Positions 1 through 3,000 of a stretch of 12,266 nt of DNA are shown in pieces. Origin of the DNA: a virus (taxonomy: Duplodnaviria; Heunggongvirae; Uroviricota; Caudoviricetes). The stretch lies in the IMG/VR virus record IMGVR_UViG_2778261346_000006; one strand, 5' to 3'. The position numbers were made by a program. The stretch's first letter is position 1; the number at the start of each line of letters is the position of its first letter.

Positions 1-3000
1 TGGCACACCGTTCACGCTGACGCAGTCACCGGTCAGTGCATTTGCGGCGGATAAACTGCATGTGACAGACATTACCAAAGGTGCGACTTACCCGGTGCTG
101 ATTGACAGCATTGCGGTGGAAGTGAACAACACAGACACTGCGGCATGATAAAAAAAACCGCCAGCGACAGGAATGGACGCTGGCGGTGGTAATACCTATG
201 GAGAAAAAATAAAGGAACGATACTTTCGTGCTCTGGTTTTTTAAATGAAAACAGTTCTTATTGTCAACAATAACGGAAAGAAATTATGACATTTCTGAAC
301 CAGTTAATGCTGTACTTCTGTACGGTGGTCTGTGTGCTGTATCTCCTTTCGGGTGGATACCGGGCCATGCGTGACTTCTGGCGCAGACAGATTGACAAAA
401 GGGCCGCTGAGAAAATCAGCGCCAGTCAGTCAGCCGGAAGCAAACCCGAAGAGCCGCTCATTTAGCGGCAACTTTCTTAATCACACCTTTCGACGAGAAA
501 ATCCCATGTCAGAAATTACATCCCTGGTCACTGCTGAGGCAGTGAAGGAAGTCCTGCGCTCTGAAGAAGTCCTGAGTGCACTGAAACAAAAACTTCGCCA
601 TAACCTGGAAGCGCGTCTTGATGCAGAAGTGGATGCCATTCTGGATGAACTGCTGGGCGCACCGGCAGCTCCGGAGCCGGAAGGTATCGCGGGTGAGGGG
701 AGTGCTTCAGATAGCGGTGACCCCACACCGGACAGCGACATGATGATGTAAGCATGCGTCAGGGACCATCGGTGTGTGCCGGTGGTCTTTTTTATTGTTG
801 TGAGCTTCCGGATTGCGGGAGACGGGGTATGTACCAGATGGAAAAAATCACAACAGGTGTGTCATACACCACGTCAGCGGTAGGGACGGGATACTGGTTA
901 CTGCAACTGCTGGACAAAGTCTCTCCGTCCCAGTGGGTGGCAATAGGTGTACTGGGGAGTCTGCTGTTTGGCCTGCTGACGTATCTGACTAACCTGTATT
1001 TCAAAATTAAAGAGGACCGTCGCAAGGCTGCCCGGGGAGATTAGGTGATGAACCATGAAGAAATGAATCAGCGCTTCAGTCGTCTGGAAAATGAAATTGC
1101 TGAACTGAATAAAAAACTGTCGGTGCTGATGCCTTCTGAAGATGCAAACAAACGCTGCGATGAGCAGTTTGCGGCGTTTTACGATGATTGTATCAAAATT
1201 GCTCGCAGGACCTTTGCGAATATTTTGCAGGAAAAGTTTTTACCGACCGCATTGTCAGAAAAGTACTCCATTACGGTTAAAAGTGCCGGAGAGGAAGGTA
1301 ATAAACGTTATTTTATTGCGTCTGCACCGGATAAAGACCAGGAATGGGAGTGTAATCGGCCATCCTTTGTTGTATCCGGTGATGACGGGAAAATCACCAT
1401 ATCAGAAAATGGAAAAGTAACACCGCCATCGCACCAGCACTGTGAGATGCTCATTGAATTTGCCATTGATTACCTGAAGAACAATAAAAAGCAAGGGCTG
1501 ATGAAGCGTATTGGTCGTTGCATGGGATATCTTCAGGTAACTGCTGAGATTGAAGCGCTGGCCTGTGGCGCAGACAGGGATACTGCGGTGCGGGAGGTCC
1601 TTCTTCGTGATTTCAATACTCCGCCCTTTAAGAAAGAGCCTGATGGCTGGATCCAGCCGGGGCTGAATTATCTCAAAGGGCGGATATAAGTTCAGGGGCG
1701 TTATCTGTTACCTGATAATTGTCTGAACAGGCGATCTTTTTGTGATTTGGCGTAATGATTATCCCATTCGCAATCAAGGTAACTTAATTCTTCATTTAAC
1801 CAGTCATCTATATTGTCTTTCAGGCGAAGGAGCAAGGTTGGTGTTAATGCTCCGGATATAATACTGAGAGTTGTAGTAGTGAGAGCTCCATACGGTTCAG
1901 CCTGAATGGCCTTTACTGCTTCGTGTTCTTGCGGGAGGAGTAAGAGGCATTCCGATTTTACCCGCTCATTTATGGCTTGCAGGAATAAATCATAATTATG
2001 TTGATGGTTATGCATGGTTAATCCTCGACTGGAATTGTCAGATATATTTTCAGCCAGCAGATAAAACGCCAGTGCCACCACTGGCGGGCTGAAAACTTAA
2101 CATATCCAGGGTTCTTGAACCGATAAATCCTGATAAATATCCATGAACGCAAAAATCAAATACGGCCTGTCAGCTGCCGTTCTGGCGCTGATTGCCGCAG
2201 GGGCTTCTGCGCCTGAAATCCTCGACCAGTTTCTGGATGAAAAGGAAGGTAACCACACCACGGCATACCGTGATGGTGCGGGTATCTGGACCATCTGTCG
2301 TGGTGCCATTCTGGTGGATGGTAAACCTGTTGTTCCTGGCATGAAGTTGTCGAAGGAAAAATGCGACCAGGTTAACGCCATTGAACGTGATAAGGCGCTG
2401 GCATGGGTGGAGAAAAACATCAAAGTGCCGCTGACCGAACCCCAGAAAGCGGGGATCGCGTCATTCTGTCCGTACAACATTGGTCCCGGTAAGTGTTTCC
2501 CGTCGACGTTTTACAGACGAATTAATGCAGGTGATCGAAAAGGTGCCTGCGAAGCGATTCGCTGGTGGATTAAGGACGGTGGCAGAGACTGCCGTATTCG
2601 TTCAAACAACTGTTACGGTCAGGTATCCCGTCGTGACCAGGAGAGCGCGCTGGCGTGCTGGGGAATCGACAGATAAGAAGAATATTTTGCTGAAAAATGA
2701 GGTTTGCTCACACGGACGGATAACACGAAATCCTGCGAACTGACAAAAACTAAGTGAATAAAAGTAAAAACCCCGTTTGTTGGCTGCAAGCGAGGTTTTG
2801 TGTTTCCTGACTCTGGAAAAGTCAAAGGAGAAAGTGTGTTTGATTTTAGCAAACTGATTCGGGAGATTCGAGTGATGGCTGAAAAATTATCTACCTGGAA
2901 GTTCATTCTTATCTGGCGGGTGTTTGTGATTATGGCCTCCGGTTATTTCATCGGTCAGATACGCTGGTGGTGAAATGAACCGCGTACTGTGCGTGGTCAT

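What the first reader, a model, noticed from the sequence alone, without database searches (positions are those of the whole stretch)
2677..2975. Small membrane ORF in a 300-bp spacer between endolysin and Rz, ending 1 nt before the Rz start
The endolysin stop (2676) and Rz start (2975) are separated by an unusually long gap for a lysis cassette. It contains a 45-aa ORF (GTG 2836, AAAGGAG RBS) encoding a single hydrophobic helix (WKFILIWRVFVIMASGYFIG) whose stop lies 1 nt from the Rz ATG (TGAAATG). Small single-TM peptides in lysis cassettes can be antiholins, lysis regulators or toxin-like peptides. If it is not coding, the spacer may instead be regulatory.
Basis: partly seen in the sequence, partly recalled or inferred. 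Interest (0 to 1): 0.55.

Follow-up and report, generated by a model that had tools for sequence, protein, structure and literature searches.

The report
Conserved small membrane gene before Rz
The 300-bp gap between this prophage's cell-wall-degrading enzyme gene and its Rz gene holds a real, widely conserved but uncharacterised gene for a 45-residue membrane protein, carried on a small mobile cassette with its own folded RNA leader.

Summary
GTG 2836 to TGA 2973 is a 45-codon ORF with an AAAGGAG ribosome site, and it stops 1 nt before the Rz ATG (2975).

It is a true gene:
- It keeps 45 codons without indels from E. coli to Salmonella, Citrobacter, Yersinia, Edwardsiella, Pantoea, Brenneria and Sodalis.
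- dN/dS is 0.08-0.22, against 0.74 and 1.83 in the shifted frames.
- It matches phrog_6632 (unknown function), and an exhaustive profile search finds 40 clusters.

The product has an N-terminal amphipathic helix and a C-terminal transmembrane helix.

The gene lies on a cassette of about 215 nt. A strong terminator-like hairpin (2767-2799) shows compensatory changes, and a CU-rich tract pairs with the ribosome site. The start codon is GTG or TTG in all 45-codon members, and the ORF ends in RWW-stop.

The same leader precedes other small tail-anchored ORFs. The cassette also sits in tail, baseplate and accessory regions, so it is moron-like and not a core lysis gene.

Function is unknown. My best guess is a terminator-gated, late-expressed membrane peptide that acts in the lysis phase and is translationally coupled to Rz.

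It is not PasA, AsxR or AgvB, and it has no Pfam, NCBIfam, PADLOC or Rfam match.

The parts
2143..2676 (+). Endolysin R, which forms the upstream border of the slot. Its N-terminus is Gly/Ala-rich and hydrophobic. That it is a SAR-type endolysin is an inference.
   Evidence: Pfam Phage_lysozyme, E 1e-24. The holin upstream at 829-1044 is the phage 21 S (pinholin) family PF04971, E 8.5e-33.
2677..2765 (+). Conserved 3' flank of R. It is not part of the cassette. It is shared with phages that carry other inserts in this slot.
   Evidence: Most of the 323 phage records match only query positions 1-86/95 at 87-93% identity, and VT2-Sakai then continues into ant. The flank is also conserved in Salmonella phage FSL SP-016.
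2767..2799 (+). Hairpin 1, an intrinsic-terminator-like stem-loop. The arms are 2767-2779 and 2787-2799 and the loop is 2780-2786. It is flanked by an A-tract (2760-2770) and a U-rich tract (2796-2808). The window copy has a C2773.A2793 mismatch.
   Evidence: On 25 leaders, 92.9% of cells are paired, 8 of 13 pairs show changes on both sides, and 0 of 500 shuffles reach this. dG is -14.7 kcal/mol here against -21.6 in the common E. coli version. The + strand is more stable in 19 of 25 leaders and the - strand in 6. The inner stem was flagged by the terminator scan.
2803..2831 (+). Second, weaker stem-loop in which the ribosome-binding site is paired. TTTCCT (2803-2808) pairs with AGGAGA (2826-2831), and the inner stem is GACT (2809-2812) with AGTC (2820-2823).
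   Evidence: Shown by MFE folds of -40..+3 in 26 leaders. Equivalent stems have different sequences: CCTTG/CAAGG, CGTTA/TAACG, CCTAT/ATAGG and CCTTCTG/CAGAAGG. Single-sequence z-scores are not significant.
2824..2830 (+). Shine-Dalgarno sequence AAAGGAG, 5 nt before GTG 2836.
   Evidence: Read from the sequence. It is conserved as AAGGAG, AGGGAG or GAGGAA in all leaders.
2836..2973 (+). The 45-codon gene (phrog_6632 family). Residues 4-17 form an amphipathic helix, residues 23-42 form the transmembrane helix, and the C-terminus is RWW. This copy carries the L28R allele.
   Evidence: phrog_6632, E 5e-28. dN/dS 0.08-0.22. AlphaFold2 gives helices 4-17 and 20-44 at pLDDT 84. PGAP annotates it as WP_000459347.1 in some genomes, but not in the 100%-identical locus.
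2861..2877 (+). Possible internal start. GGGAG (2861-2865) lies 9 nt before the in-frame ATG 2875 (Met14), which would give a 32-residue product.
   Evidence: Met14 is invariant in the 45-codon set and nearly so in distant members. Serratia L031 keeps only the part from Met14. The 32-aa form is annotated on about 1000 or more Salmonella contigs. Use of this start is not shown.
2966..2977 (+). Junction with Rz. GGTGGTGA holds the Trp-Trp-stop codons and resembles a Shine-Dalgarno sequence. One base follows, then the Rz ATG. Translational coupling is inferred.
   Evidence: The junction is stop-N-ATG in 99 of 107 loci, in front of two unrelated i-spanin families: MNRVLC.. (PF03245) and MTRTLL.. 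(DUF2514).
2975..3442 (+). Rz (i-spanin), with Rz1 (o-spanin) embedded at 3195-3380. This is the downstream border of the slot.
   Evidence: PF03245, E 4.7e-50, and PF06085, E 1.7e-21.

Best explanation
Layer 1, about 0.93 likely and shown by comparison. The stretch 2836-2973 is a genuine protein-coding gene. It belongs to a widespread, uncharacterised family of roughly 32-54-residue proteins (phrog_6632). Each has a conserved N-terminal amphipathic helix (motif D-x-S-K-h-h-R-E-h-R-x-M-x-E-K/R-L-P/S-x-W-K/R-F). A single C-terminal transmembrane helix follows, so the protein is a tail-anchored inner-membrane peptide with its N-terminus in the cytoplasm.

Layer 2, about 0.8 likely and shown by comparison. 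The gene travels as a cassette of about 215 nt, a moron-like unit. The cassette has four parts:
- an A-tract, a strong GC hairpin and a U-tract, which together look like an intrinsic terminator;
- a CU-rich tract and a short stem that pair with the ribosome-binding site;
- a non-ATG start codon;
- the ORF, which ends RWW-stop.
The same leader, and often the same 3' end, flank other unrelated small tail-anchored ORFs.

Layer 3, about 0.5 likely and inferred. The cassette has no promoter of its own and sits in late operons of phages that have a Q-type antiterminator. The peptide would therefore be made only from antiterminated late transcripts. The terminator-like hairpin, the occluded ribosome site and the GTG start would keep it silent in the lysogen, as expected for a membrane-active product.

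Layer 4, about 0.35-0.4 likely and inferred. In this prophage the peptide acts in the lysis phase as a non-essential modulator. It would tune triggering of the phage 21-type pinholin / SAR-endolysin system, or membrane integrity, through its conserved cytoplasmic helix and oligomerising TM helix. Its translation would also be coupled to that of Rz, whose ribosome site lies in the last codons of the ORF.
For: Coding:
- The ORF has 45 codons and no indels in 107 of the 112 sequences held (window plus 111 loci), spanning at least 12 species.
- dN/dS is 0.08-0.22 for divergent pairs, against 0.74 and 1.83 in shifted frames.
- Synonymous CGG/AGG and CTG/TTA/CTA exchanges occur.
- Antisense frames are closed.
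- There are 33 clusters in the 5.8-billion-protein set and 40 clusters in the exhaustive profile search.
- It matches phrog_6632 at E 5e-28.

Membrane peptide:
- The family TM segment has a Kyte-Doolittle mean of 2.1-2.4, and the N-terminal helix has muH 0.49.
- AlphaFold2 gives two helices at pLDDT 84.

Cassette:
- The leader is kept even in distant, GC-rich members.
- The covariance model finds the leader in front of other small tail-anchored ORFs.
- In L116, three units share the 5' part up to the U-tract and the 3' ATCCGYTGGTGGTGA, but differ in between.

Late operon and antitermination:
- The window prophage has an antitermination protein gene.
- In the structural and lysis contexts the cassette lies on the same strand as the gene upstream of it (lysis, tail or baseplate genes). 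In L116-L118 the nearest upstream genes are on the opposite strand.
- No sigma-70-like promoter lies between the hairpin and the start codon.
- L116 units sit behind a promoter-like site followed by terminator-like hairpins, just upstream of terminase.

Link to lysis:
- In E. coli, E. albertii, E. fergusonii, Salmonella, Citrobacter and Edwardsiella the cassette lies between the endolysin and the i-spanin.
- Four endolysin types are involved (PF00959, GH19, GH108 and a 138-aa type) and at least two i-spanin families.
- The junction is stop-N-ATG in E. coli, E. albertii, E. fergusonii, Salmonella and Citrobacter; in Edwardsiella the spanin start is not resolved.
- The same slot holds other small TM ORFs in PhiR12_1, GER2 and VT2-Sakai.
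Against: - There is no experimental evidence of expression or phenotype. No mention was found in the searched literature or in the supplements of two small-protein censuses.
- The family is as common outside lysis cassettes, next to tail, baseplate and accessory genes. The R-Rz position may therefore just be a permissive insertion site.
- It has no similarity to holins, antiholins, releasin or spanins.
- The hairpin is nearly symmetric. Its strand preference is modest (19 against 6 leaders) and termination was not measured.
- The stems around the ribosome site are short, not in one alignment register, and individually not better than shuffles.
- The RWW end is conserved even where no gene follows at 1 nt, so it is not there only to serve Rz.
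- The window copy carries L28R in the TM helix and a weakened hairpin, and may be a less active allele.
Confidence: 0.55

Rival explanations
1. The cassette is a context-independent moron. The peptide acts on a host or phage membrane target unrelated to lysis, for example exclusion of superinfecting phage DNA, counter-defence, or modulation of a host transporter. It would work in the manner of small regulatory membrane proteins. Under this reading the R-Rz junction is only one of several permissive insertion sites in late operons.
For: - Most distinct genomic contexts are not lysis cassettes. Examples are after a baseplate spike (gp138_N/Apex), DUF2612, an S74 tail fibre and LPD38, between the tail K gene and Bro-N genes, and among ParE/RelB/HicAB modules.
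- Cassettes occur in tandem with swapped ORF bodies between conserved ends, a pattern typical of conflict genes.
- The strongly conserved cytoplasmic helix suggests a specific protein partner.
Against: - No own promoter was found, and a terminator-like hairpin lies directly upstream. This argues against expression in the lysogen, where exclusion proteins usually act.
- There is no PADLOC hit.
- Precise abutment to i-spanin genes recurs across unrelated lysis cassettes.
Confidence: 0.3
2. The ORF encodes a type I toxin-like peptide. Its translation would be held off by the structured leader and by an antisense RNA that starts inside the ORF and ends at the bidirectional hairpin.
For: - The peptide is small and hydrophobic, the ribosome site is paired, and the start codon is non-ATG.
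- The hairpin has U-tracts on both strands, so it could terminate a minus-strand RNA.
- Synonymous sites are unusually conserved in codons 3-18.
- Distant members sit among toxin-antitoxin genes.
- One weak minus-strand promoter-like site lies at 2958-2929 in the window.
Against: - By inspection of the aligned sequences, that promoter-like site does not appear to be conserved in Salmonella or Citrobacter versions. No formal scan was run.
- No conserved minus-strand -10/-35 was found.
- G.U pairs favour the + strand in most leaders.
- The gene lies in the sense orientation inside late operons rather than as an autonomous locus.
- It has no Rfam or known toxin family match.
Confidence: 0.08
3. 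The spacer is non-coding. The ORF is fortuitous, and conservation reflects only a terminator and a regulatory RNA, or the ribosome site of Rz.
For: - The hairpin and leader are clearly conserved.
- PGAP leaves the ORF unannotated in many genomes, including the identical locus.
- Nucleotide-level conservation is high in the first 18 codons.
Against: - dN/dS is 0.08-0.22 in this frame only.
- There are no indels in 135 nt, while the leader has several.
- The TM-helix codons vary freely at third positions yet keep hydrophobic residues.
- Protein-level similarity extends to members with 45-60% identity and different nucleotide composition.
Confidence: 0.03

Closest known systems
Morons of lambdoid phages (Juhala et al. 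2000, as cited in PMC4104026 and PMC2629481); bor and lom are examples from my own knowledge
   Same: - It is an extra gene unit inserted between genes that are adjacent in related phages.
- It is found at several classic moron sites: the lysis cassette, between tail genes, and near terminase.
- It spreads mosaically across hosts.
   Different: - A classical moron carries its own promoter upstream and its own terminator downstream, and is expressed from the prophage.
- Here no promoter is seen.
- The terminator-like hairpin is upstream of the gene.
- The unit is fused to the next gene with a 1-nt spacer.
Dual-start holin/antiholin pairs (lambda S107/S105, phage 21 S71/S68) and separate antiholins (T4 RI, P1 LydB); from established knowledge of phage lysis
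   Same: - It is a small membrane protein in a lysis cassette with a phage 21-type holin.
- It has two in-frame candidate starts, each with a Shine-Dalgarno-like sequence (GTG 2836 and ATG 2875).
   Different: - It has no sequence similarity to these proteins.
- It has one TM helix and virtually no C-terminal cytoplasmic tail.
- The candidate N-terminal extension is 13 residues, not 2-3.
- It also occurs where no holin is nearby.
- Function was not tested.
Mu gp25 releasin (DUF2730; Chamblee et al. 2022, PMC9239132)
   Same: It is a membrane-tethered protein with a cytoplasmic part, encoded by a phage with a SAR-type endolysin. This offers a conceivable way for a small bitopic protein to affect lysis.
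   Different: - Per the paper's abstract, gp25 is a membrane-tethered cytoplasmic protein with an N-terminal TM domain, and the whole protein belongs to DUF2730.
- This peptide has the reverse order of domains.
- It gives no Pfam match.
- It also accompanies GH19 and GH108 endolysins.
Type I toxins (Hok, TisB, Ibs, Ldr, ZorO)
   Same: - It is a small hydrophobic peptide.
- It has a structured leader that pairs the ribosome site.
- The family is multi-copy and diversified, and often prophage-borne.
   Different: - No antisense or divergent sRNA gene was detected.
- It is embedded in the sense orientation in late operons.
- The TM helix is C-terminal, after a conserved charged helix.
Small regulatory membrane proteins with a cytoplasmic amphipathic helix plus a TM helix (phospholamban; bacterial AcrZ, MgtS)
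   Same: The architecture and size are similar. A 3-4 hydrophobic repeat (F4, L7, I11, M14, L18, W21, L25, L28) runs from the N-terminal helix into the TM helix. This suggests oligomerisation or docking on a larger membrane protein.
   Different: This is an analogy only. There is no homology and no partner is known.

Membership tests
phrog_6632 (PHROGs, unknown function) | A significant full-length match to the family profile. | tested here: met
   E 5e-28, with residues 13-57 of the 57-aa reading matching profile positions 1-45 of 45.
Protein-coding gene (as opposed to a chance ORF) | Frame conservation and purifying selection in that frame only. | tested here: met
   There are no indels in 25 distinct versions. 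dN/dS has a median of 0.16, against 0.74 and 1.83 in shifted frames. Antisense frames contain stops.
Intrinsic (Rho-independent) terminator (hairpin 2767-2799) | A GC-rich stem-loop followed directly by a U-rich tract. | tested here: met
   The stem has 13 bp and dG ranges from -12 to -28 kcal/mol across the family. It is followed by TTTTGTGTTTCC or TTTTCTGTTTC. The inner stem was flagged by the scan.
Intrinsic (Rho-independent) terminator (hairpin 2767-2799) | The structure is maintained by selection. | tested here: met
   92.9% of cells are paired, 8 of 13 pairs have compensatory changes, 0 of 500 shuffles reach this, and slid controls give 37-59%.
Intrinsic (Rho-independent) terminator (hairpin 2767-2799) | It actually stops RNA polymerase, and Q-modified polymerase reads through it. 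| not testable with these tools
   This needs in vitro transcription or Term-seq.
Moron | It is present or absent, or replaced, between genes that flank it in related phages. | tested here: met
   The R-Rz slot holds this cassette in some phages. It holds ant plus a 44-aa TM ORF in VT2-Sakai. It holds 60-aa plus 43-aa ORFs in PhiR12_1, or another ORF in GER2.
Moron | Its own promoter upstream and its own terminator downstream of the gene. | tested here: not met
   There is no promoter-like site on the + strand in 1900-3700. Only about 36 nt lie between the hairpin and the start codon. The hairpin is upstream, and Rz starts 1 nt after the stop.
Holin | At least one TM domain plus a charged, hydrophilic C-terminal domain. 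| tested here: not met
   One TM helix is present, but the C-terminus is only RWW. There is no holin Pfam match. A canonical phage 21 S holin is already present at 829-1044.
Dual-start antiholin | Two in-frame starts that give a longer inhibitory form and a shorter active form of the same membrane protein. | tested here: inconclusive
   GTG 2836 and ATG 2875 each have a Shine-Dalgarno-like sequence. Met14 is near-invariant, and a Met14-only version exists in Serratia. Use of both starts and antagonism between the forms were not tested.
Releasin (DUF2730) | A Pfam DUF2730 match, with an N-terminal TM domain followed by a cytoplasmic domain. | tested here: not met
   There are no Pfam hits at E up to 1. 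The domain order is reversed.
Type I toxin-antitoxin | A cis- or divergently encoded antisense sRNA with its own promoter. | tested here: inconclusive
   There is one weak minus-strand promoter-like site in the window, which by inspection does not appear to be conserved in Salmonella or Citrobacter. The hairpin could terminate either strand. No transcript data are available.
Type I toxin-antitoxin | The peptide is toxic when expressed. | not testable with these tools
   This needs expression experiments.
Known prophage sRNAs of EHEC/EPEC (AsxR, AgvB, PasA/C/D, STnc100) | An Rfam model match, or the published genomic position. | tested here: not met
   There is no Rfam hit at gathering score in the whole window, and only a weak rimP-leader hit (E 0.083) at the hairpin. 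The published positions are 3' of stx or between the esterase gene and the holin, not R-Rz.

The most novel reading that the evidence does not exclude
The ORF is one member of an undescribed cassette system of temperate phages of Enterobacterales and some other Proteobacteria. A conserved cis-RNA leader forms the 5' end: a terminator-like hairpin plus a stem that occludes the ribosome site, absent from Rfam. A conserved 3' end (..CGN-TGG-TGG-stop, which doubles as a ribosome site for the next gene) closes the unit. Between them lie interchangeable bodies that encode different small tail-anchored membrane peptides. The cassettes are exchanged and duplicated within late operons and are expressed only under antitermination. 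They would form a new class of late-phase membrane effectors, acting in lysis timing or antiholin-like control, or in late exclusion.
Probability: 0.3. Interest if true: 0.75.

Novelty: new variant of a known kind. Interest (0 to 1): 0.55.

Why it matters
- The sequence of the R-Rz junction is present over at least 80% of its length in 870 of 5,426 complete E. coli genomes. It also occurs in many Stx1- and Stx2-converting phages. Yet the gene is annotated inconsistently and has no name, family description or known function.
- In Stx phages, toxin release depends on phage-mediated lysis. An extra late membrane protein wedged between endolysin and spanin, and probably coupled to Rz translation, is therefore a cheap, testable candidate for a modifier of lysis timing and toxin release.
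- The conserved leader and the cassette-like exchange of small tail-anchored ORFs suggest a general way in which phages add tightly gated membrane peptides to late operons. The leader is also a candidate new cis-regulatory RNA motif.
- If the peptide proves to have no role in lysis, it remains a widespread unannotated small-protein family.

Tried and rejected
1. Known RNA families. Rfam gave nothing at gathering score on the whole window. A permissive search of 2500-3200 gave only a weak rimP-leader hit (E 0.083), which is just the hairpin plus U-run on the minus strand.
2. Known EHEC/EPEC prophage sRNAs. AsxR and AgvB lie 3' of stx, and the Pas sRNAs lie between the esterase gene and the holin, so none is in this spacer.
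3. Protein families. Pfam, NCBIfam and PADLOC gave no hit for this ORF or for four other small ORFs found in the slot or behind the same leader.
4. Antisense coding. The 95-aa minus-strand ORF 2619-2906 is annotated in CP-1639. It is not conserved, and stops occur in all three antisense frames in most homologues.
5. Antisense promoter. The only hit (2958-2929) does not appear to be conserved on inspection.
6. Releasin analogy. The domain order and the family do not fit.
7. Literature. Full-text search for the peptide, its accession, and small ORFs upstream of Rz gave nothing. So did searches of the supplements of the Sakai small-gene study and the Salmonella small-protein census.
8. A single aligned structure for the second stem. 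The stems are real in most sequences but lie in different registers, so column-wise covariation could not be counted. Only per-sequence folds are given.
9. Long-range pairing. RNAalifold proposed ATTATC (2886-2891) pairing with GGTGGT (2966-2971). There are no compensatory changes, so this is left as a note.
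Full report
WHAT THE WINDOW IS

The window is the late region of a lambdoid, Stx-phage-like prophage of E. coli. The R-Rz junction queried (window 2600-3050) is 100% identical to O145 strain RM9154-C1 and to Stx2a phage Stx2_12E129. Its gene order is as follows:
- DUF1378 and DUF826 genes.
- A phage 21 S-type holin at 829-1044 (PF04971).
- A two-gene insert (1048-1689 on the + strand, 1701-2015 on the - strand, no Pfam match).
- Lysozyme R at 2143-2676.
- The 298-nt spacer.
- Rz at 2975-3442, with Rz1 embedded at 3195-3380.
- Terminase and head genes.

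CHECK OF THE OBSERVATION

- AAAGGAG at 2824-2830.
- GTG at 2836.
- 45 codons.
- TGA at 2971-2973.
- One base, then the Rz ATG at 2975.

An ORF of this size is not significant by itself, since there are 35 ORFs of at least 30 aa in 2.7 kb. The test has to be comparative.

IS IT A GENE?

Yes. The junction region is found in 2,057 of 5,426 complete E. coli genomes. It is found over at least 80% of its length in 870 of them, and in 317 phage records.

Conservation of the ORF:
- Salmonella phage FSL SP-016 is only 71% identical in DNA. It keeps a 45-codon ORF in the same frame, ending TAA-C-ATG(Rz).
- A pattern scan of one genome per species found the ORF in Citrobacter braakii, Yersinia similis, Edwardsiella ictaluri, Izhakiella, Sodalis, Brenneria, Pantoea stewartii, Symbiopectobacterium and Trabulsiella.
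- The same scan found it in an Azoarcus MAG and, from Met14 onward only, in Serratia.
- Of the 112 sequences held at that point (the window plus 111 loci), 107 carry an intact 45-codon version.
- These comprise 25 distinct DNA versions and 19 protein versions, with no indel. The leader just upstream has several indels.

Selection:
- Nei-Gojobori dN/dS between the window and divergent homologues is 0.08-0.22.
- The median over 93 pairs is 0.16, against 0.74 and 1.83 when the same alignment is read in the two shifted frames.
- Synonymous exchanges include CGG/AGG and CTG/TTA/CTA.
- All antisense frames carry stops in most homologues.
- Rare frameshifted or truncated variants exist, but each stands for 1-5 member sequences against clusters of 59 and 154.

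Database status:
- The protein matches phrog_6632 (unknown function, E 5e-28).
- PGAP annotates it in some genomes (WP_000459347.1), but not in the identical RM9154 locus.
- All source names are 'hypothetical' or 'putative bacteriophage protein'.
- An exhaustive profile search of 1.84 billion representatives gives 40 clusters of 32-86 aa as called; the conserved core is about 32-54 aa.

THE PROTEIN

- The most conserved part is the N-terminal segment, with the motif D-x-S-K-h-h-R-E-h-R-x-M-x-E-K/R-L-P/S-x-W-K/R-F. It is amphipathic (muH 0.49).
- A hydrophobic segment of about 20 residues follows (Kyte-Doolittle 2.1-2.4).
- In many members the C-terminus is only RWW.
- AlphaFold2 gives helices at 4-17 and 20-44 with pLDDT 84.
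- By the charge distribution, the N-terminus should be cytoplasmic, making this a tail-anchored peptide. This is an inference.
- Hydrophobic residues recur every 3-4 positions from F4 to L28. This suggests self-association or docking on a partner, which is also an inference.
- The window allele has Arg at position 28 (CGG for CTG). This lowers the TM score to 1.69. Eight of the 107 ORF copies held share this allele.

THE CASSETTE AND ITS LEADER

The spacer is a mosaic.
- Its first ~95 nt are a conserved 3' flank of R. This flank is also present in 933W/Sakai-type phages, where ant follows.
- The remaining ~215 nt travel as a unit.

Hairpin 1:
- The unit starts with an A-tract and a strong hairpin (window 2767-2799), followed by a U-rich tract.
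- On 25 leaders, 92.9% of cells pair, 8 of 13 pairs show changes on both sides, and no shuffle of 500 reaches this. Slid controls drop to 37-59%.
- Stability runs from -12 to -28 kcal/mol.
- The + strand is the more stable one in 19 of 25 leaders, so the element looks like a terminator that could work on both strands.
- The window copy has a G-to-A change that gives a C.A mismatch (-14.7 against -21.6 kcal/mol).

The ribosome-site stem:
- Downstream of hairpin 1, a CU-rich tract and a short stem pair with the ribosome-binding site.
- The stem sequences differ between lineages: GACT/AGTC, CCTTG/CAAGG, CGTTA/TAACG, CCTAT/ATAGG and CCTTCTG/CAGAAGG.
- Single folds are not better than shuffles.

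The start codon is GTG (TTG in Edwardsiella) in all 45-codon members. Some distant members are annotated with ATG.

The leader serves more than one ORF family:
- The leader is kept even in distant, GC-rich members.
- A covariance model built from it finds further copies in front of other small tail-anchored ORFs. These are a 60-aa ORF in L113, 58- and 51-aa ORFs ending AIRWW in L116, the 60-aa ORF of PhiR12_1, and the GER2 ORF.
- It also finds a second, tandem cassette in E. fergusonii.
- In L116, three units are nearly identical from a promoter-like site through hairpin 1. They diverge exactly after the U-tract and converge again at ATCCGYTGGTGGTGA.

The design is therefore conserved ends with exchangeable bodies. 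Only one copy is present in the window.

CONTEXT

In E. coli, E. albertii, E. fergusonii, Salmonella, Citrobacter and Edwardsiella the cassette lies between the endolysin and the i-spanin.
- Four endolysin types are involved: PF00959, GH19, GH108 and a 138-aa type.
- At least two i-spanin families are involved: PF03245 and DUF2514.
- In 99 of 107 loci the junction is stop-N-ATG.

Elsewhere the cassette follows or sits among other kinds of genes:
- A baseplate spike, DUF2612, an S74 tail fibre, LPD38, or a T7 gp14-like protein.
- Between the lambda-like tail gene K and Bro-N genes.
- Among ParE, RelB and HicAB modules just upstream of terminase.

The R-Rz slot is itself a hot spot for small TM ORFs. 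VT2-Sakai has ant plus an unannotated 44-aa TM ORF. PhiR12_1 has 60- and 43-aa ORFs.

HOW IT MOST LIKELY WORKS

Shown:
- It is a conserved gene for a small membrane peptide.
- It lies on a mobile cassette with a conserved structured leader.
- In the lysis, tail and baseplate contexts it is oriented with the surrounding late genes.

Inferred:
1. The cassette has no promoter of its own, and a terminator-like hairpin lies directly upstream. Its hosts are phages with Q-type antitermination, and an antiterminator gene is present in this prophage. The peptide should therefore be made only from antiterminated late transcripts. The hairpin, the paired ribosome site and the GTG start would together keep it off in the lysogen. 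That degree of gating fits a membrane-active product.
2. Here the ORF ends inside a Shine-Dalgarno-like GGTGGTGA, 1 nt before the Rz start. Rz translation is therefore probably coupled to it.
3. A late-only membrane peptide next to a pinholin / SAR-endolysin / spanin set most plausibly modulates the lysis phase. I give this about 0.35-0.4.

The main rival, at about 0.3, is that the position is incidental and the peptide has another membrane target. A type I toxin-like reading (0.08) lacks a conserved antisense promoter. A purely non-coding reading (0.03) is contradicted by the substitution pattern.

COMPARISON WITH WHAT IS KNOWN

- It behaves like a moron in its distribution, but it lacks the defining promoter-gene-terminator layout.
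- It resembles dual-start antiholins only in having two candidate starts (GTG 2836, and ATG 2875 with GGGAG 9 nt upstream).
- It is not a holin, a releasin (PMC9239132), a known toxin or a known defence protein.
- It is not one of the described prophage sRNAs.
- I found no paper that mentions it.

VERDICT

- The gene's existence is already recorded in databases as a hypothetical protein.
- Four points appear not to have been described, as far as my searches reached: its breadth, the evidence for selection, the structured leader, and the cassette organisation.
- Function remains open.
- Interest is moderate. The family is common in Stx phages and directly testable, but no mechanism is demonstrated.

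Noticed in passing
window 2677-2765: The ~90-nt 3' flank of the endolysin gene is conserved independently of what follows it. It occurs in 933W/Sakai-type phages, where ant follows, and in Salmonella FSL SP-016. It includes GGATAAC preceded by a variable short palindrome, for example CGTTGGCCAACG in L019 and CGTGGCGCCACG in L007. Its role is unknown.
   Followed up: partly
window 2842-2889 (codons 3-18 of the ORF): Synonymous sites are almost frozen across genera. AGC (Ser5) and CGA (Arg12) are invariant, and GAT, AAA, GAG and TTA nearly so. In contrast, the TM-helix codons vary freely at third positions. This points to an extra nucleotide-level constraint, such as an internal start at Met14, RNA pairing or a binding site. 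It remains unexplained.
   Followed up: partly
window 2886-2891 with 2966-2971: RNAalifold proposes that ATTATC, inside the ORF, pairs with GGTGGT, the Shine-Dalgarno-like sequence in front of Rz. Both sides are conserved but show no compensatory change, so the pairing is untestable here.
   Followed up: no
window 2773/2793 and 2917-2919: This copy differs from the common E. coli version in two ways. It has a C.A mismatch in the hairpin, which weakens it by about 7 kcal/mol. It also has Arg instead of Leu at residue 28, in the middle of the TM helix. It may be a weakened or altered allele. E. albertii has Gln at the same position.
   Followed up: partly
window 1048-1689 (+) and 1701-2015 (-), terminator-like hairpin 2086-2067 (-): Two genes are inserted between the holin and the endolysin, which are adjacent in related phages. 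They encode 213-aa and 104-aa proteins with no Pfam match. The second is on the opposite strand and has a terminator-like site near its 5' end. This looks like another moron in the lysis cassette.
   Followed up: partly
L010 (VT2-Sakai AP000422) about 2655-2789; L008 (PhiR12_1) 1852-1983: Another small TM ORF sits directly upstream of Rz in 933W/Sakai-type phages, after ant. It encodes MISDKLITLVKSLCVLVGISFLVMLVAIFFSTAWRVLTLSGLVG (44 aa) and is unannotated in the Sakai record. PhiR12_1 has a homologue. It is unrelated in sequence to the 45-aa family.
   Followed up: partly
L116 2626-5590 (GCA_900156195.1): A repeat unit with a ~365-nt, nearly identical 5' part occurs three times, with unit starts 704 and 1526 nt apart. 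Each unit has a promoter-like site (TTTACA-17-TATCAT), two terminator-like hairpins, and a different small tail-anchored ORF. A further partial copy of the 45-aa family lies at 5467-5589. The units sit among ParE and RelB toxin-antitoxin genes just upstream of terminase.
   Followed up: partly
L011/L013 (E. fergusonii) 2175-2407: A second cassette lies in tandem, directly upstream of the 45-aa cassette. It has the same type of leader and a 50-aa tail-anchored ORF ending KWW-stop-T-ATG. In L013 its ATG is mutated to ATA.
   Followed up: partly
window 3443-3897: A 455-nt stretch between Rz and the small terminase gene has no annotated gene. In related phages (TL-2011c, Sakai), bor lies here on the opposite strand. 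It was not examined.
   Followed up: no
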